DNA of 64,000 bases, taken from the NCBI GenBank assembly GCA_041665925.1, contig JBAYHW010000005.1, forward strand, positions 13,819-77,818, written 5' to 3'. Below are positions 3,395-35,660 of the stretch, in pieces. The notes beneath the pieces are model-generated. The model saw nothing but the letters and a program-made list of their open reading frames with translations. It ran no database searches and had not been told where the DNA came from. Position 1 is the first letter of the stretch. The number at the start of each line of letters is the position of its first letter. The DNA is from Minisyncoccota bacterium (GTDB lineage Bacteria; Patescibacteriota; Minisyncoccia; Phycocordibacterales; UBA9973). The position numbers were made by a program, and so were the translations under genes.

Positions 3395-3395
3395 A

Positions 3396-3842
3396 ATGTT
3401 AAAAATTTTTTCAAAAAAAAATAAAGGCGGATTTACTCTAGTGGAAACACTTGTGGCTATTTCAATTTTTACAGTCTCTATTCTCGGGCTTATGTCTATT
3501 TTATCTTCTGGAATTTCTAGTACTACTTATGCTAAAAATAAAATGATTGCCGGGTATTTAGCACAAGAAGGAATAGAGTATGTGAGAAATATGCGCGATA
3601 CTGCCGCACTCACGGCAGCAGATGCTGACACTGGGTGGGCTAACTTTAAAACTAGCGTTGCTCCACCTGCGTTACCTCCTGTATTAAATAGCCCAGATAC
3701 TTATTTTACTCGCATCTTATCAGTGGAAACCACTACTAACCCGGACGAACTCAAGGTTACCTGTGTTGTTTCTTGGACTCAACCTTCCGGTCCTCAAAGC
3801 GTAACCTTGTCAGAGAATTTATTTAATTGGATACAGATATGA
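3396..3842 (+). CDS. Prepilin-type minor pilin, PilV-like (148 aa)
   Basis: N-terminus NKGG|FTLVETLVAISIFTVSILGLMSIL. The stop TGA at 3840-3842 overlaps the next gene's ATG. Confidence 0.75.
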   Translation: MLKIFSKKNKGGFTLVETLVAISIFTVSILGLMSILSSGISSTTYAKNKMIAGYLAQEGIEYVRNMRDTAALTAADADTGWANFKTSVAPPALPPVLNSPDTYFTRILSVETTTNPDELKVTCVVSWTQPSGPQSVTLSENLFNWIQI

Positions 3843-5689
3843 TAATAAAAAATACACAACAAAATAGAGGGTTCGTGATTCTCTTTGCGGTAACCATTGC
3901 GGCGATTCTTTTAACCATAGCTTTAGGTGTGGCCAACATTGCGCAAAAAGAAATAAAATTTAGTACTTCAGCTAAAGATACCAATGAAGCTCTTCTTTCG
4001 GCAGATACCGGTATTGAGTGTGCACTTTTATACGATAAAAATAATGCTTTCCCCATCGGCGGACCAGCAAAACCCCTTACTTGTGCTTCATCTAATATTA
4101 TTCCTGTATTTTCAAGATCGGCTACTGTTGGTTCCTACGATTTTTATATTTCTGGGGTAGGTAATAATATAAAAAATTGTGTCAAAGTAAATGTTACTAA
4201 AGATAGTGCTGCTGTTTCCGCTACGGTAAGAACAACAATAACTTCTAAGGGTTATAACAACAGTGATCCAGGTTCTATAAATTGTGAGTTAGTTAATCCT
4301 GAAAATGTTAACGAGCGTGTTCTCGAAGTGACATACAATACCGGAGATTCTCCAAGCGCTCCTCCATCCACTGTTCCAGTTTGTGATACTACCTTCCCTA
4401 ATGATAAATTTAATGTTTGTTATTTTGCTTTTACTCCTACTGCCGGCGATCCTCCAATTGCTGAACCAATTACAGACGGGACAACTCCAATATTATATAG
4501 TCAGTATCCTGACCCACTAGCAACTAGTGTTGGGTCGTCATCAAGTCCAGTAGGAACTTGGGCAGGTTTTGACCATGATTGGGGAGCTTCACCTCTAGAT
4601 AATGCTATTTCTCCAACCAGTCAAAATAATGAAGTTACTGCTATATGGCGAGGGCGGATAAATTTTAAGGCGGGGACCTATACCTTTAGAACTACTTCTG
4701 ATGATGGAGTTCGTTTAAACGTAGAAGGCGTTGACGTTATTAACAATTGGACTCTTCATGGTATAACCGGGGACAGTGCTTCGGTGACTTTTCCTACTGC
4801 TGGTTATAGAAATGTCCAATTGAGTTGGTTTGAGCATACCGGAGGAGCACGAATTAGATTTAGGTGGGACTATTCAGCTACAGGAATAGGTAGTGGTGGG
4901 GATATAACAAATTCGGGAGGATATACTATCCACACATTTAAGAATAGCGGAACATTTACTGCTCCAAGTACTGTATCTTCTGTTGAAGTTCTTGTGGTGG
5001 GGGGCGGTGGCGGTGGCGGGAAAAGACATGGAGGAGGAGGGGGAGCAGGAGGAGTAATTTACAACGGTTCTTATAGCGTTACTCCAGGTCTAAGTATTCC
5101 CGTGACTGTCGGTGGAGGCGGAGCAGGTGGCATTGAACAGGTTATTGAATCGGATAAAGGAGGACAGCCCGGAGGGGATTCTATTTTTGGAACACTTACA
5201 GCTAAAGGAGGTGGAGGGGGAAGAACGTACGGTCCAGGAGGAACCTCTGGAGCTGGAGGATCTGGCGGAGGAGGCTCAGGGATTTCTCCCGATGCTCGGT
5301 TGGGTGGAACAGGGACATCTGGGCAAGGTAAGAATGGGGGGTCTGGTAGTTCTTCAACGTCAAGTGGAGGTGGTGGTGGGGGTGCGAGTGCATTAGGGGG
5401 AACTGGCGGTACTAATGGCGGAAACGGTGGGGCCGGGTTGCCATATTCTATTTCTGGTTTATCGTTGTATTATGGCGGCGGCGGCGGCGGCGGGAGTGAG
5501 AATGTTGGTGGAAGTGGTGGATTGGGTGGAGGTGGACATGGGGGTGACCAAGGAGGAACAGTAAACCAAACCGCTGGTAGCCCTAATACAGGAGGGGGGG
5601 GTGGAGGGTCTCGAAGTATTATTCCAGAGACAGACAATGGCTCTGACGGTGGGTCTGGTGTTGTAATTATTCGTTACCCTACTCCTTAA
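3839..5689 (+). CDS. PilX-N-like giant minor pilin/tip protein with a PA14-like domain and a long glycine-rich C-terminal tail (about 616 aa)
   Basis: The ATG at 3839 overlaps the previous stop. N-terminus QQNRG|FVILFAVTIAAILLTIALGVANIA resembles the PilX N-terminal pseudopilin helix, which lacks E+5. The central block AIWRGRINFKAGTYTFRTTSDDGVRLNVEGVDVINNWTLHG...VQLSWFEHTGGARIRFRW matches the PA14/GLEYA beta-sandwich signature. The C-terminal 250 aa are runs of GGGGxGG. The ORF track starts at the in-frame TTG at 3827, but the ATG at 3839 is preferred. Confidence 0.7.
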   Translation: MIIKNTQQNRGFVILFAVTIAAILLTIALGVANIAQKEIKFSTSAKDTNEALLSADTGIECALLYDKNNAFPIGGPAKPLTCASSNIIPVFSRSATVGSYDFYISGVGNNIKNCVKVNVTKDSAAVSATVRTTITSKGYNNSDPGSINCELVNPENVNERVLEVTYNTGDSPSAPPSTVPVCDTTFPNDKFNVCYFAFTPTAGDPPIAEPITDGTTPILYSQYPDPLATSVGSSSSPVGTWAGFDHDWGASPLDNAISPTSQNNEVTAIWRGRINFKAGTYTFRTTSDDGVRLNVEGVDVINNWTLHGITGDSASVTFPTAGYRNVQLSWFEHTGGARIRFRWDYSATGIGSGGDITNSGGYTIHTFKNSGTFTAPSTVSSVEVLVVGGGGGGGKRHGGGGGAGGVIYNGSYSVTPGLSIPVTVGGGGAGGIEQVIESDKGGQPGGDSIFGTLTAKGGGGGRTYGPGGTSGAGGSGGGGSGISPDARLGGTGTSGQGKNGGSGSSSTSSGGGGGGASALGGTGGTNGGNGGAGLPYSISGLSLYYGGGGGGGSENVGGSGGLGGGGHGGDQGGTVNQTAGSPNTGGGGGGSRSIIPETDNGSDGGSGVVIIRYPTP

Positions 5690-5707
5690 TTAGAATTTAT
5701 TTCTGCT

Positions 5708-7804
5708 ATGGAAAAAGAGAGAGTTAAAAACCGAATAAAAAAATTGCGGGCGGAGATTGCGCGGTTACGGGGAGAGTATCATATCAAGAATGCCCCAAAC
5801 GTGACGGATGACGTCTATGATTCTTTGACCCGGGAGCTCAAGAGTCTACTGAAAGAATTTCCAGAATTTGAAGATGCTAATTCTAAAGAAAACAGAGTGG
5901 CCGGAAAGCCATTGGATAAATTTGTAAAAGTAAAGCATAAAAACAGGATGCTTTCTTTGAACGATGCTTTCAGTGAAGAAGAACTTAAGGATTGGGAAAA
6001 AAGAATTAAAAAATTACTGGTCGGAGACACAAAGTTCAATTATTTTTGTGAGGTAAAATTTGATGGTTTGGCCGTGTCGCTTATTTATGAAAATGGAAAA
6101 TTTATAAAAGGTGCTACGAGGGGGGATGGATTTGTCGGAGAAGACATAACTCAAAATTTAAAAACAATTCATTCTATACCGCTTGAACTTAAAAGTCCTT
6201 ACCCGAAATATGTTGAAGTTCGTGGGGAAGCAGTAATGTCTAAAAAGACTTTAGAAAAATTAAATAAAATAAACGAAAAAGAAGGTAAAGTCTTATTTGC
6301 TAACACCAGAAATGCAGCTGCTGGGAGCTTGCGTCAGCTCGACCCCAAGCTCGCAGCCGAAAGAAGCTTAGACTTCTTTTCCTATGATATAGCTGAAATT
6401 TCTGAAGACGAAAAATTAATTACGCATTCTGACAAGCATAAGTATCTAAAAAGCTTAGGTTTCCCCGTAGATAGTCATGACGCAGTATGTAAAAATTTAG
6501 GAGAAGTCACTTCTTTTATTAAAAAATTTGAAAAAATTAGGGCGGGATTTGCGTATGGCACAGATGGAGTCGTTATCTCAGTAGATGATTTAAGATTACA
6601 AGAAGTGCTAGGGGTAGTAGGTAAGGCCCCTAGGTATATGTCTGCCTTTAAGTATCCAGCCGAGAGGGCTACTACAGTGGTGAAAGATGTGAAAATAAAT
6701 GTTGGGCGCACTGGCGTGCTTACTCCGCTCGCCATATTTGAGCCCACGCTTGTAGCGGGCTCTATGGTGGGCAAGGCGACCTTGCATAACATGGATCAGA
6801 TAGAACGCTTAGATTTACGTATTGGAGACACTGTGGTTATAGAAAAAGCAGGGGATGTGATTCCGAAAGTGGTGGAAGTTTTAACTCGGATGCGTACCGG
6901 AAAAGAGAAGAAAGTAAAAATGCCGACAATTTGCCCTGTTTGCACTTCACCGGTTCAGAAAATTTCTTCGCGCTTAACCCTAAAGGGCTCCGACACGACT
7001 CAGAAATTTTCCAAACCCGCTACGCAATCAGTGGCTTACTACTGCAGTAATCCTAAGTGTCCGGCAAAAAATGAACGATATTTAGAACATTTTGTTTCTG
7101 TTTTTGAAATATATGAGTTGGGGCCGAAAATTTTAAGACGTTTTAAAGACGAGGGACTTATCACTGATGCTGCAGACTTATTCTCACTGACTAAAGATGA
7201 TTTTACTACTTTGAAAGGCCTGCCCCGTAGGAAGTCGCAGACTTTCCTGTCGGGGTTCGGCGACAAGTCAGCACAAAATATAATCAACGAGATAAACCAC
7301 AAGAAGAAAATTCCATTATCTAAATTTTTATGGGCTCTCGGGATATTGCATGTGGGGGAGGAAACAGCACGAGATCTAGCTGTCCATTTTGGCACATTAG
7401 AAAAATTAACAATTTCAGCACAAAATCACGGAGAAGAAATTGATAGTATAGAAAATATTGGTCCGGCAGTTTTGAAAAGTGTCACCAACTTTTTCAATGA
7501 TAAAAGTAATTTGAACTTTATTAAAAAATTAGAAAAAAATGGAGTAGTAGTAGAAAAAGCAGAAAAAAAGAAAGCGGGGAAATTTTCAGGCATGCTTTTT
7601 GTTCTCACGGGCACACTTTCTACTATGTCTCGCGAAGTAGCGAAAGAAAAAATCTTGGCACTAGGTGGTAAAGTTTCCGGATCCGTTTCTAGAAATACCA
7701 ATTATGTAGTAGCAGGGGAAGAACCTGGTTCAAAACTTGTTACAGCTCAAAAATTAGGAGTAAAAATACTGAGTGAGAAAGAATTTTTAAATTTCCTAGT
7801 ATAG
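5708..7804 (+). CDS. ligA: NAD-dependent DNA ligase
   Basis: Adenylation motif CEVKFDG (KxDG), OB/zinc-finger/HhH regions and a C-terminal BRCT (GxxFVLTG...KLG). 698 aa. Confidence 0.93.
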   Translation: MEKERVKNRIKKLRAEIARLRGEYHIKNAPNVTDDVYDSLTRELKSLLKEFPEFEDANSKENRVAGKPLDKFVKVKHKNRMLSLNDAFSEEELKDWEKRIKKLLVGDTKFNYFCEVKFDGLAVSLIYENGKFIKGATRGDGFVGEDITQNLKTIHSIPLELKSPYPKYVEVRGEAVMSKKTLEKLNKINEKEGKVLFANTRNAAAGSLRQLDPKLAAERSLDFFSYDIAEISEDEKLITHSDKHKYLKSLGFPVDSHDAVCKNLGEVTSFIKKFEKIRAGFAYGTDGVVISVDDLRLQEVLGVVGKAPRYMSAFKYPAERATTVVKDVKINVGRTGVLTPLAIFEPTLVAGSMVGKATLHNMDQIERLDLRIGDTVVIEKAGDVIPKVVEVLTRMRTGKEKKVKMPTICPVCTSPVQKISSRLTLKGSDTTQKFSKPATQSVAYYCSNPKCPAKNERYLEHFVSVFEIYELGPKILRRFKDEGLITDAADLFSLTKDDFTTLKGLPRRKSQTFLSGFGDKSAQNIINEINHKKKIPLSKFLWALGILHVGEETARDLAVHFGTLEKLTISAQNHGEEIDSIENIGPAVLKSVTNFFNDKSNLNFIKKLEKNGVVVEKAEKKKAGKFSGMLFVLTGTLSTMSREVAKEKILALGGKVSGSVSRNTNYVVAGEEPGSKLVTAQKLGVKILSEKEFLNFLV

Positions 7805-27514: not shown

Positions 27515-29671
27515 ATGCGCTTAAAAACACTTCAACTAAATGGTTTTAAATCTTTTGCACAAAAAACTGTTTTAGAGTTTGAGAGTCCTATCGTGTCTAT
27601 CGTGGGGCCGAATGGCTCCGGGAAGTCCAACGTTGTAGAAGCTATCCGTTTCGTCTTGGGGGAGCAATCAATGAAGTCTATGCGCGGTAAGGGGGGCTCT
27701 GACCTTGTTTTTAAGGGTTCGAAGAATCTATCTAGAGGTTCTAAGGCAGCTGTGACTATTTATTTTAATAATACTGATAAAATTTTTAAATTATCAAACG
27801 ATAACGGAGATGATATAAATTTAAATTATGATGTAATTTCGATTTCTCGTGAAGTTTATTCCGATGGGGTCAATAAATATATTTTAAACGGATCCGAAGT
27901 CAGGCTGAAAGACATACACAACTTACTCGCTTCAGTAAACATCGGCTCTTCGGGGCACCACATCATATCTCAAGGAGAAGCAGACAGAATTTTAAACGCT
28001 TCGGCTCGCGATAAAAAAGAAATGGTAGAAGACGCACTCGGGCTTAAGATTTATCAATACAAAATAAAAGAATCCGAAAGAAAACTAGAAAAGACCACAG
28101 AAAATATGAAAGAGGTGACTATGCTCCGAAGGGAGAATGCACCCCACTTGAAATTCCTAGAAAAACAAGTAGAGAAATTTGAAAAGGCTAAGGAAATGCA
28201 AACAAGTCTGGCTAATCTATACCGAGAATACTTAAGCAAAGAAAGCATTTATATAGAAAATGAAAAGGAAAACCTATCACGAGAGAGGAACAAATTGTCG
28301 GAAGAACTGCGAGGTATAAATATAAAAATTTCTGCCACCGAAGATACTAATAAGCAAGAAAATAAAAAGATTGAGGAATTGCGAATAGTGGAGCAGAGGG
28401 TCAACGGAATCCGTGGAGCGAAGGGAGAGCTCGAGCGCAAGCTAGGGAGAATTGAAGGAATATTAGAATCAAGAGAGAATAAAGTAAAAGTCGCCGGAAA
28501 ATGCCCACTCTGTGGTAGTGAGATAAAAGAAGGAGCAGAACAAATAGAGAAAAAGCATAACGAAGAGAAAGAGCTGGAAGAATTGAAAATTTCACAGGCT
28601 AATACTGTGGCCGAGATTAGAAAAATTGAAGGAGAAGAAAAAGAGGGGATTCAAATTATTGAAAATCTCAAACAAGCAATAAATACAGAGATGGAAGCCT
28701 TGCGTGACTTAGAGCGTGAGAAATTCGCCTTTAAAGTAAGACACCAAGAGCTTTCTTCGGCGCTTGAGCTCGTAGTTATCAAAGAGGCGAACCTAAAGAA
28801 CAGAAAAGAAGCCTTCGAAAACGAGATAAAAGAGGGTGGGGCATTAATTGGCTCGGACATTTTTTCATATAAGAATTATACAGTTGAAGAAAAAGTAGAA
28901 CACGAGACTCAAGAAGAATTAAAAAAGAAAATAGAACGTATAAAGATAAAGCTTGAAGATGCAGGCATGGGCAATGGGGCGGAATTGATGAAAGAATTTG
29001 AACAAGTTTCTGAGCGAGATCAATTCTTAGCCAAGGAGCTTGAAGACTTAGAGAAGAGCATAGAATCTTTAGAAAAACTTATTGTAGATCTGAAAGAAAA
29101 GATAGATTTAGAATTTAAAGAAGGGGTCAAGAAAATAAATGTGGAATTTCAAGAATTTTTCTCACTGATGTTCGGCGGGGGGCACGGAGCGCTTTCAATT
29201 GTCGTAGAAAATAAAAAGTCCCGACGCCCTGCGGGGTCGGGATCCCGACCTGATGCGTCGGGAAAATTTGAAGACGAGGAGTTTGAATTTGAAGACGACG
29301 AAGAAATAGTTTTCGAACAGGGGATAGAGATAAATGTGTCCTTGCCTCACAAAAAAGTCAAAGATTTACATGCGTTTTCGGGAGGAGAAAGATCCCTTAC
29401 ATCCATCGCGCTTCTCTTCGCTATGTCTCAAGTCAATCCGCCGCCATTTCTAGTTCTTGATGAGACAGATGCCGCACTCGATGAAGCCAATTCTCGAAAA
29501 TATGGAGATATGCTAGAAAAACTCTCTAAGCAATCTCAACTCATCGTGGTTACTCACAACAGAGAGACGATGTCTCGAGCTGGAGTGCTCTACGGCGTCA
29601 CCATAGGTGGCGACGGTGCTTCCAAACTTCTCTCTGTGAAGTTCGAAGAAGCCACCCAGATTGCTAAATAG
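27515..29671 (+). CDS. smc: Miniaturised SMC-family ATPase (718 aa) with a CxxC zinc-hook-like apex instead of a hinge
   Basis: N-terminal Walker A MRLKTLQLNGFKSFAQKTVLEFESPIVSIVGPNGSGKSNVVEAIRFVLGEQS. C-terminal signature and D-loop FSGGERSLTSIALLFA...FLVLDETDAALDE. Mid-coiled-coil AGKCPLCGSEI. It sits in the conserved rnc-smc position. Confidence 0.8.
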   Translation: MRLKTLQLNGFKSFAQKTVLEFESPIVSIVGPNGSGKSNVVEAIRFVLGEQSMKSMRGKGGSDLVFKGSKNLSRGSKAAVTIYFNNTDKIFKLSNDNGDDINLNYDVISISREVYSDGVNKYILNGSEVRLKDIHNLLASVNIGSSGHHIISQGEADRILNASARDKKEMVEDALGLKIYQYKIKESERKLEKTTENMKEVTMLRRENAPHLKFLEKQVEKFEKAKEMQTSLANLYREYLSKESIYIENEKENLSRERNKLSEELRGINIKISATEDTNKQENKKIEELRIVEQRVNGIRGAKGELERKLGRIEGILESRENKVKVAGKCPLCGSEIKEGAEQIEKKHNEEKELEELKISQANTVAEIRKIEGEEKEGIQIIENLKQAINTEMEALRDLEREKFAFKVRHQELSSALELVVIKEANLKNRKEAFENEIKEGGALIGSDIFSYKNYTVEEKVEHETQEELKKKIERIKIKLEDAGMGNGAELMKEFEQVSERDQFLAKELEDLEKSIESLEKLIVDLKEKIDLEFKEGVKKINVEFQEFFSLMFGGGHGALSIVVENKKSRRPAGSGSRPDASGKFEDEEFEFEDDEEIVFEQGIEINVSLPHKKVKDLHAFSGGERSLTSIALLFAMSQVNPPPFLVLDETDAALDEANSRKYGDMLEKLSKQSQLIVVTHNRETMSRAGVLYGVTIGGDGASKLLSVKFEEATQIAK

Positions 29672-29716
29672 AAATAGAGTGTTAATCTTTACCTTGGGTA
29701 GCAGGAAGGAGAAACG

Positions 29717-29974
29717 ATGCGAAGTCGCCCCTTTGAGGAGACGATCCTCGAGACGATAAGCGAGATGTGCATTCCCCAGGTCGAACTGGTGGCCAATCTG
29801 ATACTTAGGACCACCATCAACAACAACCACGATGAGATTGCCGTCGCCTGGCGGGAGCGATGCCTGGAACTGGGACTCCGCGACCACATGGATGTGGTCG
29901 CGGCGCTCGAGTTTAAAAGGCGAAGTATCCAGCCCGCCTACAACGCTGTTTTCTCTGGCATTTTCGATCAGTAG
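29717..29974 (+). CDS. GC-rich hypothetical protein (85 aa), MRSRPFEETILETISEMCIPQVELVANLILRTT...
   Basis: Strong SD GGAAGGAGA 4 nt upstream of the ATG. Followed by the hairpin AGCCCG...CGGGCT plus a T-rich tract. About 55% GC. No family recognised. Confidence 0.45.
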   Translation: MRSRPFEETILETISEMCIPQVELVANLILRTTINNNHDEIAVAWRERCLELGLRDHMDVVAALEFKRRSIQPAYNAVFSGIFDQ

Positions 29975-30034
29975 TAGCAGTGAGCCCGTGTGAGGAGTCC
30001 GCGTACTATACGCTACCCCGCGGGCTTTCTCATT

Positions 30035-30202
30035 TTATTTCTTCCAATCTTTAACCTGCACGCCACCTTGGATTTTAGTGACCACGAGCTTCTGCCGTTC
30101 TTTCCAGCCGAGTGCTCGCACGACTTCGATCGGCAGAGTCAAATAATATGACCCGCCCGACTGCTGTAGATTTCTAATTTTTGCATCTTTTATTTTTCTC
30201 AT
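30035..30202 (-). CDS. AbrB/MazE/SpoVT-fold (swapped-hairpin) small DNA-binding protein, 55 aa
   Basis: The minus-strand translation MRKIKDAKIRNLQQSGGSYYLTLPIEVVRALGWKERQKLVVTKIQGGVQVKDWKK shows the characteristic pattern: a G-rich turn followed by a LTIPKEIREKLGL-like strand-helix. Not in the ORF track because it is under 60 aa. Confidence 0.6.
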   Translation of the reverse strand: MRKIKDAKIRNLQQSGGSYYLTLPIEVVRALGWKERQKLVVTKIQGGVQVKDWKK

Positions 30203-30276
30203 CCCGTTAGAAATTAAGCTAATAAATAAATCCTGTTAGCTTGACGGAAATCTAAAGATTTCCTATTTCTAACGGG
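30203..30276 (-). repeat. Inverted-repeat cassette, copy 1: CCCGTTAGAAAT...ATTTCTAACGGG, flanked by ATGAG on both sides and containing a 22-aa mini-ORF (30214-30282)
   Basis: 12-bp terminal inverted repeats seen in the sequence. A second copy is at 33062-33126. Confidence 0.7.
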
Positions 30277-30290
30277 ACTCATACATGTAA

Positions 30291-30338
30291 GTATATACCA
30301 ATCCCTGGGGATATCCCTAGGGAAGTCCCTAGGGATTC
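30291..30338. promoter_or_regulatory. Operator-like repeat block: GTATATACCAATCCCTGGGGATATCCCTAGGGAAGTCCCTAGGGATTC, carrying tandem TCCCTAGGGA palindromes. Direct repeat of 31060-31096.
   Basis: It lies in the divergent region between the AbrB-like gene on the minus strand and the two small GC-rich ORFs on the plus strand. Confidence 0.6.
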
Positions 30339-30404
30339 GCAAGAATCCTATATCTGGACAATAGTAATATTTAATGTTAGAAAATACTTGAAGGAGGACT
30401 CGAT

Positions 30405-30611
30405 ATGAATTATCGAGCAAAGATCAAGCGGGCCAGAGCCCGCCGGTACCACGAACGTTGGAAGGCAGCGCGACGCGCTGGCCTTCCCAAGGGCCCCAGC
30501 GGGACCACCAAGTCGAATCTGCTTCGGCCGAGCAAGCCGGTACGTCGGGCACACCAGAAGGAGGGGGACGGGTGGTGCCCCGAATGCTGGTCTTTCATGT
30601 GCCGGGCGTGA
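30405..30611 (+). CDS. GC-rich small basic protein (68 aa), Arg/Lys-rich, with C-terminal CPECWSFMC
   Basis: Strong SD GAAGGAGGAC 5 nt upstream of the ATG. A candidate -35/-10 pair (TGGACA ... TAGAAA) upstream. Confidence 0.45.
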   Translation: MNYRAKIKRARARRYHERWKAARRAGLPKGPSGTTKSNLLRPSKPVRRAHQKEGDGWCPECWSFMCRA

Positions 30612-30635
30612 GCGGCCTGGGGCTGTCAATCAAAA

Positions 30636-30908
30636 ATGCACAAGGAGGAGGTTACCGTGTTCGTAATTGAGCATCTCGAGCAGTTTTGCCAAGACCACCC
30701 CGAGTTCTTCGGCGATAACACGCGTGAGTGTGTTATCGCCGAAGCCAAGAACCGGGCGAACGAGGAAGGAGTTCTCATGTCCGCTGAAGCCGAGAGCCTT
30801 CTCGGCCCGACTCTCGCGTTCCAGTTCTTCTCGGAGATGACTAGCACGAGCAAGCATCTCCAGATCAGCATGGAAGTTGCGGAGCGTCTGCGGAAGAGCG
30901 TTCGGTAA
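30636..30908 (+). CDS. GC-rich small acidic protein (84-90 aa). The probable start is the GTG at 30657, which is preceded by AAGGAGGAGG.
   Basis: An SD sits 5 nt before the in-frame GTG. The ORF is followed by the CCCCG...CGGGG hairpin and, further downstream, the terminator at 31019-31056. Confidence 0.4.
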   Translation: MHKEEVTVFVIEHLEQFCQDHPEFFGDNTRECVIAEAKNRANEEGVLMSAEAESLLGPTLAFQFFSEMTSTSKHLQISMEVAERLRKSVR

Positions 30909-31018
30909 TCCTGGTTAGCACAACCCCGTCGACGACAGCGAAGTCGGCGGGGTGGGGCTGGTGGGTTCTTTAAAATCGTGTTAGTAAAACACGAACCTTA
31001 AAAGGGTTCGTTGTATCG

Positions 31019-31056
31019 AGCCCTGCAAGGAAAAGAACTCTTGCGGGGCTTTTCTA
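31019..31056 (+). terminator. Intrinsic terminator AGCCCTGCAAG-loop-CTTGCGGGGCT followed by TTTTCT
   Basis: Stem plus T-run at the right edge of the GC-rich island. Confidence 0.7.
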
Positions 31057-31059
31057 ATT

Positions 31060-31116
31060 GGTATATACCAATCACTAGGGAAGTCCCTAGGGACTGATCT
31101 ACGCCATGGCGTAGAT
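31060..31116. repeat. Second copy of the operator-like repeat (TGGTATATACCAATCACTAGGGAAGTCCCTAGGGACT) followed by a perfect 20-bp palindrome ATCTACGCCATGGCGTAGAT
   Basis: TGGTATATACCA (12 bp) and AGTCCCTAGGGACT (14 bp) are perfect palindromes. The 20-bp palindrome is at 31097-31116. Confidence 0.7.
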
Positions 31117-31141
31117 TTCTTAGTATATTATATATGATAGA

Positions 31142-33061
31142 TTAAGGAAGTTTTAATTTTTCCTCTTTGGCAGGGATTATTTTATTTAGTTGGAAAACAG
31201 AGTTAAGTTGGGTTTGATTTTTCTTTACTGATATAGAGCCGTCGCGGTTTAACTTTATTTCTAGAAGCATACCTTGCATCGTAGCTTTACTCCATGATTG
31301 GTCAAACACAAAGTTCCCGAGAGAGTAGGCAATGAAACTCGCGCACGAACTTTGAGTGCAATCTTTCCTGCTGTATACTTCTGTATCTTCAACTACGTGC
31401 GGATGATGTCCGATAACTATTTTTGCCCCCGCATCCACGGCTTTATGGGCGAGATATTCCTGACGAGCATTGTGCCTTGGTTTATATTCATCGCCGAAAT
31501 GGAAAGAAACGACGAGATAATCTACTTGCTTTGCAGCATTTTGAACTATCTCATTAAAACGAGGGTTGCTAGCGAGGAGTACACCTGCTTTTTCTTCTCC
31601 GGCTTCCATCCACGAAGGGCCGACGTCAGAAAACCCAAGGTAACCTATTTTCATCCCATATTTTTCTATGATGACTGGAGTCTCAGCCTCAGCGCGGTTA
31701 TAGCCTCCGCCAGTATAATGTATTTCATTTTCTTTCAAGCGCCCTAGAGTGTCAACGTATGCAGTGCGCCCCCAGTCTCCCACGTGATTATTCGCAAGAG
31801 ATAAAACACCCACTCCGGCCCCTTTGAGCGCGGGGATTACGCCGGGGTCCATTCTAAATGAATATAAATTTTTCTGGTCAACTCCTTGATCTGACGCGGT
31901 GCCCTCTAAATTGGCGAAAGCGATGTCTGACTTTTTAAATATATCTACTTTTTCAAAGATAGCTGAGTAATCATTGTTGAAATTTTTTACCACCGAAGAC
32001 CTCACGCCACGGTCGAGCATTATGTCTCCACCGAAAGCTAGCATTACGAAAGATGGATCTTTTATTTCTGGTAGACCAACTTTTTCTTTAACCCAGTCGG
32101 TGTTAGCGTCAGCTTTCCCTCCATAATAAATATATTTTTTTAAATATTTTACAATTGATTCCACATCTTTCTTCCTATCAGTACTCTGAAGTAGGGTGAT
32201 GGCTATAGGGCGAGTGCCAGTTTCACTAAGAGGAAGATTGAAAAGAGATACTACTGTTTGCTTGGCAGGGTCGGTGTAGCCACTTTTACCTCCTGTGTAT
32301 CCGTCTTGGCCTAAAAATTGGCTGATGTTGGACCAGCTGTGCTTTTTGTTTGTGTAGCTTCTTTTTGTGGTAATGCCCACTAGGTCTGGTTTTTCTTTCG
32401 TTAAGTATCCGGTTAATTTAAAAATATCAGAGACAGTAGATTTATTGTTTATAGAAAGTCCGCTCGGATCGGCAAATGAAGTGTTTGGCATTTTTAGAAT
32501 CTCTGCCACCTCATTCATTTTTGAAATAAAGGAATCTCTACCGAAATGTTCGGCGATGGCTTCAGCCGCGTCGTTGCTAGATTCTAAAAGGAGCGGGTAG
32601 AGCAGGTCGGTAGTTTTTATTTTTTCCCCAAGTTTTAATTCTCCATTGGAGCCAGAGGTAGCTAGAGCTTTTTTGCTGACTTGTACTGTGTCATCTGCGT
32701 TGGTTATTTCTGTGGCTACTAGAGCTGTCATCAGCTTGGAGACCGAAGCGATAGGGAAGGCCACTTCTTGATTTTTTGAGAGAATGACTTCACCAGTATT
32801 CAAATCTCCGACAAGATATGCTTTCGCGGAGACCTTCGGTCCGCCGTTCGTGTCTTTATTGACATAAAAATATTGAGATTTTATCTCTTCGCGGTCTTTA
32901 GGAATAAGCTGAACTACTGAAGCGAGATTGTTTGATGATTGCCGGAAGTCGTTAATATTAAGGGCAGAAAATACTGACGATGTAAAAAATACTCCAATTA
33001 ATATTGAAAATGTGGTCCACAGTATTACATTTATTTTTTTTCTTTTTTGAATAGGACTCAT
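31142..33061 (-). CDS. Fusion protein: N-terminal D-alanyl-D-alanine carboxypeptidase (S11/PBP5-like) plus C-terminal CapA/PGA-type metallophosphoesterase (639 aa)
   Basis: Signal-anchor. The SxxK motif ASVSKLMTALV, the SxN motif ESSNDAAEA and the KTG motif GGKSGYT. Then the CapA motifs FANLEG, GYNRAE, VSFHFGDEY, GHHPHV and GNFVFDQ. Confidence 0.8.
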   Translation of the reverse strand: MSPIQKRKKINVILWTTFSILIGVFFTSSVFSALNINDFRQSSNNLASVVQLIPKDREEIKSQYFYVNKDTNGGPKVSAKAYLVGDLNTGEVILSKNQEVAFPIASVSKLMTALVATEITNADDTVQVSKKALATSGSNGELKLGEKIKTTDLLYPLLLESSNDAAEAIAEHFGRDSFISKMNEVAEILKMPNTSFADPSGLSINNKSTVSDIFKLTGYLTKEKPDLVGITTKRSYTNKKHSWSNISQFLGQDGYTGGKSGYTDPAKQTVVSLFNLPLSETGTRPIAITLLQSTDRKKDVESIVKYLKKYIYYGGKADANTDWVKEKVGLPEIKDPSFVMLAFGGDIMLDRGVRSSVVKNFNNDYSAIFEKVDIFKKSDIAFANLEGTASDQGVDQKNLYSFRMDPGVIPALKGAGVGVLSLANNHVGDWGRTAYVDTLGRLKENEIHYTGGGYNRAEAETPVIIEKYGMKIGYLGFSDVGPSWMEAGEEKAGVLLASNPRFNEIVQNAAKQVDYLVVSFHFGDEYKPRHNARQEYLAHKAVDAGAKIVIGHHPHVVEDTEVYSRKDCTQSSCASFIAYSLGNFVFDQSWSKATMQGMLLEIKLNRDGSISVKKNQTQLNSVFQLNKIIPAKEEKLKLP

Positions 33062-33132
33062 CCCGTTAGAAGTTTTAATAATTTATAATTTATTTTATTA
33101 GTCTCGATAGTTGAACTTCTAACGGGACTCAT
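33058..33132 (-). CDS. 24-aa mini-ORF (MSPVRSSTIETNKINYKLLKLLTG) inside cassette copy 2, translationally coupled on both sides
   Basis: Its ATG overlaps the rnr stop (ATATGA), and its TGA overlaps the ATG of the downstream 639-aa gene (GGATGAGT). Confidence 0.4.
   Translation of the reverse strand: MSPVRSSTIETNKINYKLLKLLTG
33062..33126 (-). repeat. Inverted-repeat cassette, copy 2: CCCGTTAGAAGT...ACTTCTAACGGG, flanked by ATGAGT direct repeats
   Basis: The same termini as copy 1, with a compensatory A/T to G/C change at IR position 11 and unrelated AT-rich interiors. Confidence 0.7.
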
Positions 33133-35087
33133 ATTAAAACGTAATCAATAGTTTTTCTCTCTAAGTCTACACCTTTTACTTTTATTTTTACTTTATCACC
33201 TAGTCTGTATCTTTTTTTTTTCTTTTGCCCGACTAGTTCTAGTTTCTTTTCATTGAAGACATAGAAATCATCATTCATATCTCGCATTCTTACTAGGCCT
33301 TCACACTTCGTCTCTACTTCTTCTACATACATACCCCATTCTGTCATTCCACTAATTACTCCACTAAATTTTTCACCCATACGCTTAGACATATATTCTA
33401 CTTGTTTGTATTTGATAGATGCACGCTCGGCGTCGGATGCGCGTTTCTCTTGCTCTGAGGCGACTTCAGACATTTTTTCATATTCAAATAACTTTGCTTG
33501 AGCTACTTTTTTCCCCACGAGGTGATTTGCGAGGAGCCTGTGGATGATTATGTCGGGGTAGCGCCTGATAGGGGAAGTGAAGTGAGTGTAATGTTCGAAA
33601 GCGAGTCCATAATGCCCGATATTTTTTGTAGAATAGATGGCTTTAGCCATAGACCTTATCACCGCGCGGTTGACTGTATCTTCTTCCGCTTTTCCCGCTA
33701 AATTCTCTAGAAGTTTATTTATTTCAAATGTAGGAATGACTCCATCCCGAAGAGTTACCTTGTGCCCCAAACTACGCAAGAAGAATGCTAAGTCAGTCAT
33801 CTTTTCTTTACTGGGCAGGTCATGAACACGATAAATTGAAACACTCTCTTCTTTCCCTTTTTCCTGCCCGACCGAGTGGCCTCGGCCGTTCGGGCGGGTC
33901 GGAGATAAAATCTCAGCTACTTTTTTATTGGCTAACAACATAAATTCTTCAATAAGTTTGTTGGAGTCGCCACGTTCTTTTTTGATAACTTTTATTGGGG
34001 TGCCGTTTTTGTCTAAGACGAACTTTACTTCTTCTTGATCTAGAGATATTGCGCCTTTGGCAAATCTTTCTTTAGTTAATTTTTTAGCTAAATTGTTTAA
34101 GATAGCAAGCTCATGGTGTAGGGGAGTGCCTGGTTTTTTTATAGAAAGCTCCGCTTCTTCATAAGTAAACCTTTTTTGAGAATGAATCACTGTCCGACCG
34201 AACCAAGCGCTTTTAACTTTGGCATTTTTATCTATTACGAACACAGCGCTCATGGTCAGCCGGTCTTTGTTGGGCACTAGACTGCATAAGTCATTCGAAA
34301 GAATTTCTGGAAGCATGGGGATGGTTCTGTCTACTAGATATACTGAAGTGCCTCGTTCGCGAGCTTCCACGTCTAAGGCACTGCTGACTTTCACATAATG
34401 CGAAACGTCAGCTATGTGGATGCCTACCTCGTATTCTTCTTTTCCTATTTCTTTAAAAGATATTGCATCATCGAAATCCTTTGCATCTGAAGGGTCAATA
34501 GTAAAGGTTAAAACTTTACGGAAATCTTTACGCCCAGCATAATCGCTCTCTCTTATGCCTTCGTGTTTAATTTTTCTCGCTTCTTCTTCTACTTTATTTG
34601 GAAGTTCGGAATCAAAACCTTTTTCCATAGCTATGGCGTGCATTTCGGTGTCATTGTCTCCAGGGTAGCCTAAAACTTTAACCACTTTTCCTAAAGGAGC
34701 TTTCTCTCTTTCTTTCCAAGATGTGATTTCTGCGAAAACCTTCTGCCCAACCTTTGCTCCATTTAGAAATTCTTTTGGAATTAAAATATCCGTATACATT
34801 TTCGTATCATCTGGCTTCAAAAAGAAAATAGATTTCTCTAATTCTAGAATCCCAGCGAAACGCATCTTGGCGCGAGAAATTATTTTCGTCACTTCAGCTG
34901 TCTGCCTACCTTTTCCCTTCGGATGGAGGAGTATCTCCACCGTGTCGCCATGCATAGCGGTGTTCAAGTGCTTGAAGTCAATTTCTGGGTCTTGCCCCTT
35001 ATTTTTACTGTCTCCAAGAGCCACATATCCTGTGCCTTTGGCCGAGATGGAGATAGTGCCCCTTAGCTTATTAGTGTGTTGTTTCAT
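33129..35087 (-). CDS. rnr: Ribonuclease R / RNase II family 3'-5' exoribonuclease
   Basis: The RNB catalytic domain (HYGLAFEHYTHFTSPIRRYPDIIIHRLL), cold-shock-like N-terminal domains and a C-terminal S1 domain. Confidence 0.88.
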   Translation of the reverse strand: MKQHTNKLRGTISISAKGTGYVALGDSKNKGQDPEIDFKHLNTAMHGDTVEILLHPKGKGRQTAEVTKIISRAKMRFAGILELEKSIFFLKPDDTKMYTDILIPKEFLNGAKVGQKVFAEITSWKEREKAPLGKVVKVLGYPGDNDTEMHAIAMEKGFDSELPNKVEEEARKIKHEGIRESDYAGRKDFRKVLTFTIDPSDAKDFDDAISFKEIGKEEYEVGIHIADVSHYVKVSSALDVEARERGTSVYLVDRTIPMLPEILSNDLCSLVPNKDRLTMSAVFVIDKNAKVKSAWFGRTVIHSQKRFTYEEAELSIKKPGTPLHHELAILNNLAKKLTKERFAKGAISLDQEEVKFVLDKNGTPIKVIKKERGDSNKLIEEFMLLANKKVAEILSPTRPNGRGHSVGQEKGKEESVSIYRVHDLPSKEKMTDLAFFLRSLGHKVTLRDGVIPTFEINKLLENLAGKAEEDTVNRAVIRSMAKAIYSTKNIGHYGLAFEHYTHFTSPIRRYPDIIIHRLLANHLVGKKVAQAKLFEYEKMSEVASEQEKRASDAERASIKYKQVEYMSKRMGEKFSGVISGMTEWGMYVEEVETKCEGLVRMRDMNDDFYVFNEKKLELVGQKKKKRYRLGDKVKIKVKGVDLERKTIDYVLI

Positions 35088-35123: not shown

Positions 35124-35152
35124 TTGACAAGCACCCCAAAATGTGCTATACT
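35124..35152 (+). promoter_or_regulatory. Near-consensus sigma70 promoter TTGACA-17 nt-TATACT
   Basis: -35 at 35124-35129 and -10 at 35147-35152, upstream of the GC-rich lipoprotein gene. Confidence 0.65.
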
Positions 35153-35209
35153 ATACCACAGAAGAGCGAGGTGGCCATTTAAGCACCTGCTCAAAAGGAG
35201 AATTGACAA

Positions 35210-35590
35210 ATGAAGAAGCTCATCGTCATCCTGGTGGCCGTGTTGGCCACCGCCTGCGCCACCACCGGCGTGAAGCTCGCGGAGCAGGCCGCTCCGCAGA
35301 CGGTTCTCTTCGCTGACGTGACCACCTGCCTCAAGGCGGCCATTGACGCAACACTGACTCCGACGGCGGCAGCGGAATTCTGTCTCGAGGCAAGACGTCT
35401 CGAAGCCGACCGCGCAAAAGCCACCGCCGAAGCAGCGGCCAAGGCGGAGGCGAACAAGCCGGCATGTGGGCTCTGCCTCATGCCGGGGACAGGATACGGA
35501 TACTACAACACGTATCCACCGCCTCCGCCGCGACCGATCGGCGGCTACACCAACACCGTCGTAGCATACACGGAACACAAGGTGAAGTAG
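35210..35590 (+). CDS. GC-rich small lipoprotein (126 aa) with lipobox LATAC, an Ala-rich helix and a C-terminal PPPPPRP/Tyr-rich tail
   Basis: SD AAAAGGAGA 8 nt upstream. Signal peptide MKKLIVILVAVLATAC. About 62% GC with high GC3. Its own promoter and terminator. Confidence 0.6.
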   Translation: MKKLIVILVAVLATACATTGVKLAEQAAPQTVLFADVTTCLKAAIDATLTPTAAAEFCLEARRLEADRAKATAEAAAKAEANKPACGLCLMPGTGYGYYNTYPPPPPRPIGGYTNTVVAYTEHKVK

Positions 35591-35622
35591 GCATCACATC
35601 GAAGGGGATGTTTTCGTCCCAA

Positions 35623-35660
35623 GGCGTCGTCGCAATCGCACGACGCCTTTTCATTTTCAT
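35623..35660 (+). terminator. Intrinsic terminator GGCGTCGT-loop-ACGACGCC followed by TTTTCATTTTCATTTTTC
   Basis: 8-bp GC stem plus a T-rich tail directly after the lipoprotein ORF. Confidence 0.7.

What the first reader, a model, noticed from the sequence alone, without database searches (positions are those of the whole stretch)
29672..31141. 1.45-kb GC-rich regulatory island: AbrB/MazE-fold protein divergent from two mini-protein genes, bracketed by TCCCTAGGGA palindromic operator repeats
A 55-aa swapped-hairpin (AbrB/MazE/SpoVT-type) protein is transcribed divergently from a small basic protein (68 aa, CPECWSFMC) and a small acidic protein (84 aa), each with a strong SD. The divergent promoter region holds tandem palindromes (GATATCCCTAGGGAAGTCCCTAGGGATTC). 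A near-identical 35-bp copy (TGGTATATACCAATCACTAGGGAAGTCCCTAGGGACT) plus a perfect 20-bp palindrome (ATCTACGCCATGGCGTAGAT) sit at the other end of the island, so the two-gene unit is flanked by direct repeats (30291-30338 and 31060-31096). An extra convergent 85-aa ORF and three terminators complete the module. The architecture resembles an autoregulated antitoxin-like repressor controlling a toxin or effector pair, or a tiny integrated element with att-like repeats. None of the small proteins matches a family that I recognise.
Basis: partly seen in the sequence, partly recalled or inferred. Interest (0 to 1): 0.8.

Follow-up and report, generated by a model that had tools for sequence, protein, structure and literature searches.

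The report
AbrB-fold regulator with private operator arrays
A tiny DNA-binding protein in an ultra-small (CPR) bacterium sits beside repeated copies of its own binding site, which flank two foreign-looking orphan genes; related proteins often head restriction-modification operons, so this is probably a local gene controller and not a toxin-antitoxin pair.

Summary
The sequence features are real. The 55-aa ORF (30202-30035, minus strand) is a minimal AbrB/SpoVT swapped-hairpin protein. It belongs to a family found in at least 114 genome loci, most from records named as CPR/Patescibacteria.

Across 80 of those loci, the family hallmark is 2-4 copies of a locus-specific 10-bp palindrome at a 12-bp pitch, just upstream of the gene. 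The palindrome core changes with the protein's N-terminal strand. TCCCTAGGGA x3 (30302-30335) is therefore most likely this protein's operator, covering -20 to -53 of its own predicted promoter.

The second copy (31057-31093) fits a second binding site, as seen in 4 of 48 other loci.

The toxin-antitoxin reading is not supported. The protein has no toxin-binding tail and no toxin gene lies nearby. The 68- and 83-aa ORFs have no detectable relatives, but they have foreign GC3 and strong Shine-Dalgarno sites that host genes lack. An att-type origin of the repeats is not excluded.

In other genomes, about 10 of 54 downstream genes are restriction-modification genes, often only 4-5 nt away. That resembles the controller proteins of restriction-modification systems, on a different fold.

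A small inverted-repeat element sits exactly at the regulator's start codon.

The parts
29717..29974 (+). 85-aa ORF: GC-rich, SD-led, convergent with the regulator gene. It belongs to an uncharacterised small four-helix family with the motif RPFHETI...NHDEI..AW.
   Evidence: ORF. GC at codon positions 1/2/3 is 0.58/0.36/0.72, a coding-like pattern. 51 distant relatives have E < 1e-3, aligned. AF2 gives pLDDT 88 with four helices. The fold search was uninformative. A relative lies among core genes typical of these small genomes.
30035..30202 (-). 55-aa minimal AbrB/SpoVT-type swapped-hairpin DNA-binding protein, the regulator.
   Evidence: All family-invariant residues are kept: R10, T22, P24, LGW, E35, Q37 and KDWKK.
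30202..30277 (-). Miniature inverted-repeat element between the regulator's promoter and its ATG. The terminal repeats are TCCCGTTAGAAAT and ATTTCTAACGGGA, flanked by ATGAG on both sides. Its last A plus the duplicated TG re-creates the start codon.
   Evidence: Inverted repeat I7. The RNA fold is -30.6 kcal/mol, z = -5.1. The 76%-identical orthologue L002 lacks the element.
30214..30282 (-). 22-codon upstream ORF (MSPVRNRKSLDFRQANRIYLLA) created by the element. It begins at the predicted leaderless start and ends 11 nt before the regulator's ATG.
   Evidence: Read from the sequence. This is an inference. A parallel 24-codon upstream ORF sits in the second copy of the element.
30290..30299 (-). 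Predicted -10 region of the regulator's promoter (TGGTATATACT on the minus strand, hexamer TATACT at 30295-30290). It lies 7 nt upstream of the first ATGAG, as in a leaderless transcript.
   Evidence: Sequence. L002 has the same ATATACTTAACAC-ATG arrangement. The promoter scan did not flag it, so this is an inference.
30302..30335 (.). Proximal operator array: three 10-bp palindromes (TCCCTGGGGA, TCCCTAGGGA, TCCCTAGGGA) at a 12-bp pitch. It spans about -20 to -53 of the regulator's predicted promoter.
   Evidence: Equivalent arrays occur in orthologues L002 and L003. Period 12 is the best period in about 57 of 80 family upstream regions, against 15 of 77 controls. The core changes with the protein.
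30405..30611 (+). 68-aa basic orphan ORF with C-terminal CPECWSFMC and SD AGGAGG. It is transcribed divergently from the regulator.
   Evidence: No relative in 5.8 billion proteins, Pfam, PHROGs or NCBIfam, PDB or viral contigs.
30657..30908 (+). 83-aa acidic orphan ORF (GTG start with SD AGGAGG; alternative ATG at 30636 gives 90 aa).
   Evidence: GC at codon positions 1/2/3 is 0.61/0.36/0.71. No relative found.
31018..31051 (+). Intrinsic-terminator-like hairpin (13-bp stem followed by TTTTCT) that closes the 68/83-aa unit.
31057..31093 (.). Distal copy of the operator and -10 segment: a 16-bp palindrome ATTGGTATATACCAAT, then TCACTAGGGA and TCCCTAGGGA at a 12-bp pitch. It has the same orientation as the proximal copy, 758 bp away. 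Its -10 reads TATACC, having lost the final T.
   Evidence: Distal operator copies also occur in L057, L059, L070 and L076.
31097..31116 (.). Perfect 20-bp palindrome ATCTACGCCATGGCGTAGAT next to the distal array. Its role is unknown. The two arms fall in register with the 12-bp pitch.
   Evidence: Register and role are inference only.
33061..33127 (-). Second copy of the inverted-repeat element, outside the finding, exactly at the ATG of the PBP/CapA gene. It forms an in-frame 24-codon upstream ORF whose TGA overlaps that ATG.

Best explanation
The region is a small accessory islet wedged between two convergent housekeeping genes (smc and a PBP/CapA fusion) in a Paceibacterota genome.

Its core is a 55-aa protein that is little more than one AbrB/SpoVT swapped-hairpin domain. 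The protein is inferred to bind as dimers, one dimer per 10-bp palindrome. It would bind the three-unit TCCCTAGGGA array that covers the spacer and -35 region of its own promoter, and so repress itself. It is also inferred to bind the two-unit array 758 bp away.

The two arrays bracket a divergently transcribed pair of foreign, SD-led orphan genes (68 and 83 aa). The regulator most likely keeps that acquired pair under local control.

What is shown: the fold, the conservation of the family, the 12-bp-pitch arrays at family promoters, the change of core sequence with the protein, the distal copies in other loci, and the foreign character of the orphan ORFs. What is inferred: actual binding, the sign of regulation, and any effect on the 68/83-aa genes.

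At family level the protein behaves like a controller (C) protein. It usually sits first in a co-directional gene string, and the next gene is often a restriction-modification or other defence/mobile-element gene only 4-5 nt away.
For: Fold. Pfam MazE_antitoxin gives E = 5.8e-5. The family profile matches the AbrB N-domain over the whole domain, and the family's invariant R10 aligns with the Arg of AbrB's VRKV motif. AF2 gives pLDDT 78 with the expected element order. Foldseek top hits are MazE, AbrB-N, SpoVT and VapB.

Family. 68 protein clusters and 114 genome loci, most from records named as CPR/Patescibacteria.

Operators. The orthologues L002 (76% identical) and L003 (63%) sit next to different genes, yet carry TCCCTAG-type units at a 12-bp pitch directly upstream of a -10 box. 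Period 12 is the best repeat period in about 57 of 80 family upstream regions, against 15 of 77 control regions. The mean best 10-mer match is 8.4, against 6.0 in controls.

Protein-operator covariation. Seven of nine RN[IL]Q..SYY-type proteins go with CTAG cores, counting L003, whose array was read. SHSVSIP goes with TATACGTATA, SSYS[IV]TLPIEF with CTCATGAG, and GGSLGLTLPIET with GTTGCGCAAC.

Uniqueness. The motif occurs nowhere else in the 64-kb window.

Second sites. Distal copies of the locus-specific operator occur in L057, L059, L070 and L076. In L070 and L076 they lie upstream of neighbouring cargo genes.

Family neighbours. 48 of 77 downstream genes are co-directional and within 150 nt. 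These include N6_N4_Mtase x5, Eco57I x3, MmeI, ResIII, Fic x2, AAA_21 and RhuM. Upstream neighbours are mostly housekeeping genes.

Foreign orphan ORFs. GC3 is 0.71-0.72, against 0.38 in host genes. A strong SD precedes 4 of 4 GC-rich ORFs, against a weak GAGG at 2 of 44 host genes.
Against: There is no binding or expression data.

The window protein itself scores 23.4 bits, just under Pfam's 24.7 cut-off.

The array lies upstream of any plausible promoter of the 68-aa gene, at roughly -56 to -89 of the best candidate I could read by eye. The scan found no plus-strand promoter there, so control of the cassette is not established.

The distal copy lies in a convergent intergenic region, not at a promoter, and its -10 hexamer is degraded.

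The duplicated segment extends beyond the palindromes: the -10 region here, and 38 identical bp in L076. This suggests the copies arose by DNA duplication or recombination rather than by selection for a second operator.

Unlike most family members, this copy has no co-directional downstream gene. No restriction-modification gene lies in the island or among the flanking genes scanned.

The inverted-repeat element between promoter and ATG could impair expression of the regulator.

Protein-operator covariation is partly confounded by shared descent.
Confidence: 0.6

Rival explanations
1. Cassette insertion. The 68/83-aa unit is a tiny integrated or captured cassette. The two 33-37-bp direct repeats are the products of the insertion: att-like cores, or a single crossover between two copies of an operator/promoter segment. 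On this view the distal copy is a scar and not a working operator.
For: The repeats are direct and 88% identical, and they include non-operator sequence (GTATATACCAAT). The DNA between them is compositionally foreign, SD-led and without relatives. In L076 a perfect 38-bp duplication flanks a low-GC LPD3-like gene next to a large serine recombinase. In L070 the copies flank low-GC GHKL-ATPase cargo.
Against: The island has no recombinase or transposase, and none was found among the eight large flanking genes scanned between 21.4 and 37.8 kb (for the genes next to the island). High GC is confined to the coding sequences and does not run up to the repeats. No empty site could be found, because only identical contigs were retrievable. 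This rival is compatible with the distal copy still being bound by the protein.
Confidence: 0.22
2. Type II toxin-antitoxin-like module. The 55-aa protein is an autoregulating antitoxin, and the basic 68-aa and/or acidic 83-aa product is its toxin or effector partner.
For: The AbrB/MazE fold is common in antitoxins. There is a weak match to the doc-partner antidote model TIGR02609 (E = 0.002, 18 bits against a cut-off of 55.9). Two family members precede Fic/DOC genes. The basic/acidic pair of small proteins looks superficially like a toxin-antitoxin pair.
Against: The protein ends right after the DNA-binding domain, so there is no toxin-binding tail. The candidate partners are divergently transcribed, not operonic. 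They match no toxin family and have no relatives. Family neighbours are diverse and mostly not toxins.
Confidence: 0.06
3. Generic repeat. The TCCCTAGGGA units are a short tandem or dispersed repeat with no link to the 55-aa protein.
For: The exact two-unit motif occurs in 13 metagenome contigs of very different GC (0.31-0.71). None has a family gene in the stretch fetched, and some carry 3-6 tandem units.
Against: Within the window the motif occurs only at these two sites. Orthologous genes carry the same motif type at the same promoter position. The array type tracks the protein subtype across the family.
Confidence: 0.04

Closest known systems
AbrB / Abh / SpoVT N-terminal domains and MraZ (SpoVT-AbrB superfamily transcription factors)
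   Same: The swapped-hairpin fold is the same, with the strand-strand-helix-strand-strand order. The family's invariant R10 aligns with the Arg of AbrB's VRKV motif. From general knowledge, MraZ also represses its own operon through evenly spaced repeats upstream of its gene.
   Different: The protein is only 55 aa and has no C-terminal multimerisation or sensor domain. AbrB has no clear consensus site, whereas this family has sharp 10-bp palindromes at a strict 12-bp pitch that differ from locus to locus. MraZ uses direct repeats at about a 10-bp pitch (general knowledge).
Controller (C) proteins of restriction-modification systems (e.g. C.PvuII, C.AhdI, C.Esp1396I)
   Same: These are small autoregulators encoded first in the operon, with palindromic operator boxes at their own promoter. 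In this family, about 10 of 54 downstream genes are restriction-modification genes, and five of the seven examined individually start 4-5 nt after the regulator's stop.
   Different: Known C proteins are helix-turn-helix proteins (general knowledge), not AbrB-fold. The partners in this family are type III Mod, type IIG fusions and a helicase-type Res subunit, not a separate type II nuclease. The copy in this window has no restriction-modification partner at all.
AbrB-type antitoxins (MazE, VapB, PemI/Kis, PrlF, doc-partner TIGR02609)
   Same: They share the DNA-binding fold and autoregulate through palindromes. They give the best Pfam, Foldseek and NCBIfam matches.
   Different: This protein has no C-terminal toxin-neutralising segment and no adjacent toxin gene. 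The NCBIfam score is far below the cut-off.
MetJ and its tandem met-boxes (ribbon-helix-helix; a working analogy only)
   Same: Arrays of 2-5 abutting short palindromes, each bound by one dimer that inserts beta-strands into the groove, with cooperation between neighbouring dimers (general knowledge). This is the best mechanistic analogue for a 12-bp-pitch palindrome array.
   Different: The fold is different, the pitch is 8 bp, and MetJ depends on a co-repressor. No evolutionary relationship is implied.
Miniature inverted-repeat elements that sit inside or against genes (e.g. Rickettsia palindromic elements, Neisseria Correia elements)
   Same: This applies to the 65-125-bp element at 30202-30277 and 33061-33127. 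It has terminal inverted repeats, short flanking direct repeats, several copies and no coding capacity, and it is tolerated next to or within coding sequence.
   Different: Four of six copies sit exactly on a start codon and regenerate it. No matching transposase was identified.

Membership tests
SpoVT/AbrB superfamily (Pfam PF04014 clan) | Secondary-structure order strand-strand-helix-strand-strand, as in the swapped-hairpin domain | tested here: met
   The AF2 model has E10-15, E18-22, H25-31, E39-44 and E47-52, with pLDDT 78. Foldseek top hits are MazE, AbrB-N and SpoVT, with probability up to 0.98 but E-values of only about 0.1-1.
SpoVT/AbrB superfamily (Pfam PF04014 clan) | Sequence match at or above the curated Pfam score | tested here: inconclusive
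   The window protein scores 23.4 bits against a cut-off of 24.7, E = 5.8e-5. Most homologues carry a precomputed PF04014 hit. The family profile matches AbrB-N at E = 0.011.
SpoVT/AbrB superfamily (Pfam PF04014 clan) | Conserved arginine in the first strand at the position of AbrB's VRKV arginine | tested here: met
   R10 is invariant in 60 family sequences and aligns with the Arg of AbrB's VRKV motif.
SpoVT/AbrB superfamily (Pfam PF04014 clan) | Obligate homodimer that forms the DNA-binding barrel | not testable with these tools
   Only a monomer model could be made.
Type II antitoxin of the AbrB type (MazE/VapB/PemI/doc-partner) | C-terminal extension that binds and neutralises the toxin | tested here: not met
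   The protein is 55 aa and its last strand ends at residue 52. The family ends with the invariant KDWKK.
Type II antitoxin of the AbrB type (MazE/VapB/PemI/doc-partner) | Cognate toxin gene adjacent and co-transcribed | tested here: not met
   The downstream neighbour is a convergent 85-aa four-helix protein. The divergent 68- and 83-aa ORFs match no toxin family. Family neighbours are diverse.
Type II antitoxin of the AbrB type (MazE/VapB/PemI/doc-partner) | Match to an antitoxin model above its cut-off | tested here: not met
   TIGR02609 gives 18.3 bits against a cut-off of 55.9.
Restriction-modification controller (C) proteins | Helix-turn-helix (Xre-type) fold | tested here: not met
   The fold is AbrB-type.
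Restriction-modification controller (C) proteins | Palindromic operator boxes at its own promoter | tested here: met
   Met by position and conservation only. Binding was not tested.
Restriction-modification controller (C) proteins | Encoded immediately upstream of, and co-transcribed with, a restriction-modification gene | tested here: not met
   Not met in this window: no restriction-modification gene lies in the island or among the flanking genes scanned. Met in about 10 of 54 family loci, for example L013, L019, L028, L039 and L056, each with a 4-5-nt gap.
Integrated element with att repeats | Direct repeats flanking compositionally foreign DNA | tested here: met
Integrated element with att repeats | Integrase or recombinase within or next to the element | tested here: not met
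   None in the island, and none among the eight large flanking genes scanned between 21.4 and 37.8 kb or the genes next to the island. The rest of the window was not scanned.
Integrated element with att repeats | Empty site in a related genome | tested here: inconclusive
   Only contigs identical to the window were retrievable.
Miniature inverted-repeat transposable element (for 30202-30277) | Terminal inverted repeats, short flanking direct repeats, several copies and no ORF of its own | tested here: met
   The terminal repeats are 13 bp. TGAG/ATGAG flanks 3 of 4 start-codon copies. There are 2 copies in the window and 6 in 4 genomes, and the interior is inverted between the window and L003.
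Miniature inverted-repeat transposable element (for 30202-30277) | A cognate autonomous element or transposase with the same terminal repeats | not tested

The most novel reading that the evidence does not exclude
This family of minimal AbrB-fold proteins may be a lineage-specific counterpart of restriction-modification controller proteins. On this reading, each member has a private, easily re-targeted array of 10-bp palindromes at a 12-bp pitch. The arrays mark and regulate horizontally acquired cassettes: restriction-modification genes, other defence genes, and orphan SD-led genes such as the 68/83-aa pair. The arrays would also serve as the recombination points where such cassettes are captured, which would explain the duplicated operator/promoter segments that flank foreign cargo here and in L070 and L076.
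Probability: 0.12. Interest if true: 0.8.

Novelty: new variant of a known kind. Interest (0 to 1): 0.5.

Why it matters
Gene regulation in CPR/Patescibacteria is almost unstudied, and these organisms have very few recognisable transcription factors. This finding gives a compact, testable protein-DNA recognition system: a 55-aa protein with 10-bp palindromes at a 12-bp pitch. It comes with natural specificity variants across at least 114 loci, which could serve for reading out an AbrB-fold recognition code.

If the link to restriction-modification operons holds, it would be, to my knowledge, the first controller class for such systems that is not helix-turn-helix. I found nothing on this in the literature searches.

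The window also shows how a streamlined genome that barely uses Shine-Dalgarno sites holds small foreign genes that carry them. It also shows a mobile element that survives by re-creating the start codon it lands on.

Tried and rejected
- **Rfam.** I scanned the island at a permissive E-value and the whole window at gathering scores. Only two tRNAs turned up, elsewhere in the window, so the GC-rich DNA is not a known structured RNA.
- **Phage and plasmid DNA.** blastn of the island against both collections found no match.
- **Viral contigs.** Scans with the AbrB family alignment, the 83-aa protein and the 68-aa protein found no relatives.
- **Homologues of the 68- and 83-aa proteins.** Only the proteins themselves came back. 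Pfam, PHROGs, NCBIfam and PDB sequence searches gave nothing. tblastn against all fetched DNA gave nothing.
- **Exact operator dimer in metagenomes.** 13 contigs matched, with unrelated composition and no family gene in the stretch fetched. This was a dead end for finding sister islands.
- **Fold search with the confident 85-aa model.** Only generic helical matches came back, so no function could be assigned.
- **Empty-site search through exact-protein look-ups of the two flanking genes.** Only identical contigs were found.
- **Minus-strand ORFs between the two arrays.** I considered whether these are the real genes, as in L070 and L076. I rejected this because the plus-strand frames have the classical GC3 > GC1 > GC2 pattern, strong SD sites and a plus-strand terminator.
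- **The distal copy as an active second promoter** driving an antisense or small RNA. I consider this unlikely, because its -10 reads TATACC and lacks the conserved final T. It was not tested.
- **The GC-rich stretch at 5000-5650.** It is simply a glycine-rich tail of a large pilin-like protein.


Full report
**1. What is there**

The window comes from a Candidatus Paceibacterota metagenome-assembled genome. The finding lies between two convergent housekeeping genes. One is a short smc-type ATPase (27515-29671, +). The other is a peptidase-S11/PGA_cap fusion (33061-31142, -). The genes scanned around them are core genes: gyrB, thrS, nusB-NUDIX, RNase III, RNase R, khpA and trmD.

GC rises to 0.50-0.63, against 0.39 for the window.

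The five TCCCTAGGGA-type 10-mers are the only ones in 64 kb. None of 100 shuffles reached 5. They lie at an exact 12-bp pitch: three at 30302-30335 and two at 31072-31093.

A 33-nt direct repeat, 88% identical, joins the two sites. It includes GTATATACCAAT, which occurs exactly only there. The 20-bp perfect palindrome is at 31097-31116.

An independent assembly from another run is identical over 30248-33272, so the arrangement is not a chimera.

**2. The 55-aa protein**

- It matches Pfam MazE_antitoxin (the SpoVT/AbrB domain) at E = 5.8e-5, just under the curated score.
- It has 68 homologous clusters, most with a precomputed PF04014 hit.
- It has at least 114 genome loci, most in records named as CPR/Patescibacteria lineages. 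A few records carry other names, which I did not verify.
- The family is tightly conserved: about 57 aa, invariant R10, T22, P24, LGW, E35 and Q37, and a C-terminal KDWKK.
- The family profile aligns with the AbrB N-domain over its whole length. R10 falls on the Arg of AbrB's VRKV motif.
- The AF2 model (pLDDT 78) has the strand-strand-helix-strand-strand order. Its best structural matches are MazE, AbrB-N, SpoVT and VapB.
- The chain ends three residues after the last strand, so there is room for nothing but the DNA-binding domain.

**3. The repeats are this family's operators**

The two closest orthologues lie in unrelated gene contexts. Both nonetheless carry TCCCTAG-type units at a 12-bp pitch immediately upstream of a -10 box.

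Across 80 family loci, 12 is the best repeat period in about 57 upstream regions, against 15 of 77 control regions. The mean best 10-mer match at period 12 is 8.4, against 6.0.

The palindrome core differs between loci and follows the protein's N-terminal strand:

| Protein N-terminal segment | Operator core |
|---|---|
| RN[IL]Q..SYY | CTAG cores (7 of 9, counting L003, whose array was read) |
| SHSVSIP | TATACGTATA |
| SSYS[IV]TLPIEF | CTCATGAG |
| GGSLGLTLPIET | GTTGCGCAAC |
| SLNVSIP | TATCATGATA |

Arrays usually end 0-35 nt from the ATG. These genes, like most genes in these genomes, lack SD sequences. The arrays therefore overlap the promoter.

In the window, the minus-strand -10 (TATACT, 30295-30290) lies 7 nt before an ATGAG, as in L002. 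That places the array at about -20 to -53. Autorepression by occlusion is the simplest reading, but it is inferred and not shown.

**4. The second copy**

A search for distal copies of each locus's own operator found them in 4 of 48 other loci, excluding one case that is simply a paralogue's operator.

- In L076 and L070 the distal copy lies upstream of cargo genes that precede the regulator. These are an LPD3-like gene next to a large serine recombinase, and a GHKL ATPase.
- In L059, as in the window, the copy lies at the far end of the regulated unit.

A second binding site is therefore a recurring feature.

The duplicated segment also extends beyond the palindromes: the -10 region here, and 38 identical bp in L076. 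The DNA between the copies is compositionally foreign in each case. A duplication made during cassette insertion is thus a live alternative, and it does not exclude the second-operator reading. The distal -10 reads TATACC, so I do not think it is an active promoter.

**5. The small ORFs**

- **68 and 83 aa.** Neither has any relative in any resource tried. They still look coding. The 83-aa frame has GC at codon positions 1/2/3 of 0.61/0.36/0.71. Both have AGGAGG sites, and a good terminator follows.
- **85 aa.** It belongs to a real but uncharacterised family: 51 distant relatives, the motif RPFHETI...NHDEI..AW, and a confident four-helix model. No structural match was informative.

Host genes in this window almost never have an SD (a weak GAGG at 2 of 44). 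All four GC-rich small ORFs have a strong one, counting a 126-aa lipoprotein-like ORF at 35210-35590. These ORFs are therefore foreign by three independent criteria: GC3, SD use and orphan status. The regulator gene and the regulatory DNA look like host sequence. The island is a mosaic, not one imported module.

**6. What it works like**

In 48 of 77 loci the next gene downstream is co-directional and within 150 nt. Of 54 such genes, about 10 are restriction-modification genes:

- five N6_N4 (type III-like) methyltransferases;
- three Eco57I/MmeI-type fusions;
- one Res helicase.

Five of the seven I examined individually start 4-5 nt after the regulator's stop. Others encode Fic/DOC, an AAA_21 ATPase, RhuM and a Schlafen-type protein. 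Upstream neighbours are mostly housekeeping genes.

This is the layout of a controller (C) protein: a small autoregulator, first in the operon, with palindromic boxes at its promoter. The fold is AbrB rather than helix-turn-helix.

I found no paper describing this. That known C proteins are helix-turn-helix rests on my own knowledge.

The window copy lacks any restriction-modification partner. It may be an orphaned controller that now sits next to different cargo.

**7. Why not toxin-antitoxin**

- There is no toxin-binding tail.
- There is no adjacent toxin family.
- The candidate partners are divergent, not operonic.
- The only antitoxin model matched is far below its cut-off.

I give this reading about 6%.

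**8. A further feature inside the finding**

The 76 nt between the regulator's promoter and its ATG (30202-30277) form a miniature inverted-repeat element. Its 13-bp terminal repeats are TCCCGTTAGAAAT and ATTTCTAACGGGA, flanked by ATGAG on both sides.

- A second copy sits exactly at the ATG of the PBP/CapA gene (33061-33127). Its 5' ATGAG overlaps the stop codon of the upstream RNase R gene.
- L003 has a longer copy at the same place in the orthologous gene, but with its interior inverted.
- L002 lacks the element. Deleting the element plus one ATGAG from the window restores an L002-like leaderless start.
- Six copies occur in four genomes among the DNA fetched, and four of them lie on start codons.
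- The element's terminal A plus the duplicated TG re-creates the ATG.
- The 5' ATGAG opens a short upstream ORF beginning MSPVR. In the CapA copy this ORF ends in a TGA that overlaps the main ATG.
- The RNA hairpins are far more stable than shuffled controls, with z from -3.5 to -5.1.

I read this as a mobile element that is tolerated because it preserves the start codon and translational coupling. A regulatory hairpin that hides the start codon is the alternative.

**9. Verdict**

The toxin-antitoxin idea is not supported, and the att idea stays open.

This is a new variant of a known kind: an AbrB-fold autoregulator. At family level it has some unexpected properties: private 12-bp-pitch arrays and a controller-like position ahead of restriction-modification genes. 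Interest is moderate.

Noticed in passing
window 30202-30277 and 33061-33127 (minus strand); L003 3272-3394; L018 141-204 and 2868-2914; L058 4155-4199: A miniature inverted-repeat element (ends TCCCGTTAGA...TCTAACGGGA, 45-120 nt) has six copies in four genomes, and four of them lie exactly on a start codon. Those four are flanked by (A)TGAG or TGAN direct repeats. The element's last A plus the duplicated TG regenerates the ATG, and the 5' copy opens a short upstream ORF starting MSPVR or MTPVR. The interior is inverted between the window and L003.
   Followed up: partly
window-wide; island ORFs at 29717, 30405 and 30657 plus 35210; L086: Host genes almost never have a Shine-Dalgarno site (a weak GAGG at 2 of 44), while all four GC-rich small ORFs have AGGAG or AGGAGG. 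In L086 the pattern is the same: small hypothetical genes have SD sites, and greA, the aminoacyl-tRNA synthetase, mraZ and rsmH do not.
   Followed up: partly
window 35126-35652: A second GC-rich islet (0.62-0.66) holds a 126-aa lipoprotein-like ORF (MKKLIVILVAVLATAC...). It has a near-consensus TTGACA-17-TATACT promoter, an SD site and a terminator, and no Pfam match. As in the finding, only the coding sequence is GC-rich and the regulatory flanks are AT-rich.
   Followed up: partly
L010, L013, L019, L020, L028, L039, L056 (about 3000-5900 in each): Family members sit directly upstream of type III-like Mod, Eco57I/MmeI-type and Res-helicase genes. In five of these seven loci the gap is 4-5 nt. 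This is an AbrB-fold analogue of restriction-modification controller proteins.
   Followed up: partly
L076 118-3117: A large serine recombinase gene is followed by a perfect 38-bp duplication of the operator segment (at about 2012 and 2885). The duplication flanks a low-GC LPD3-like 177-aa gene, and the AbrB-family gene comes next. This suggests cassette capture at operator arrays.
   Followed up: partly
window 31097-31116; L064 about 2945-2970: The arms of the 20-bp palindrome (ATCTACG / CGTAGAT) equal the half-sites of the ATCTACGTAGAT operator of family member L064. They also fall in register with the 12-bp pitch of the adjacent array. This may be coincidence.
   Followed up: no
L090 1082-1150, L094 2074-2110, L096, L097, L098: Exact TCCCTAGGGA units at the same 12-bp pitch occur as 3-6-unit tandem arrays in unrelated metagenome contigs, several with 63-71% GC. 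No AbrB-family gene lies in the stretch fetched, and what binds them is unknown.
   Followed up: no
window 29717-29974; L086 616-924: The 85-aa ORF defines an uncharacterised family of small four-helix proteins (P5, H38 and W45 invariant; motif RPFHETI...NHDEI..AW). In another small genome with typical core genes, a member has the host's native GC.
   Followed up: partly
L102 end, equal to window 30248: The independent assembly breaks inside the inverted-repeat element. This fits the element being repeated in the genome.
   Followed up: no
window 5000-5650: This GC-rich stretch is the glycine-rich C-terminal tail of a 620-aa protein with a pilin-like hydrophobic N-terminus, not a foreign islet.
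   Followed up: yes
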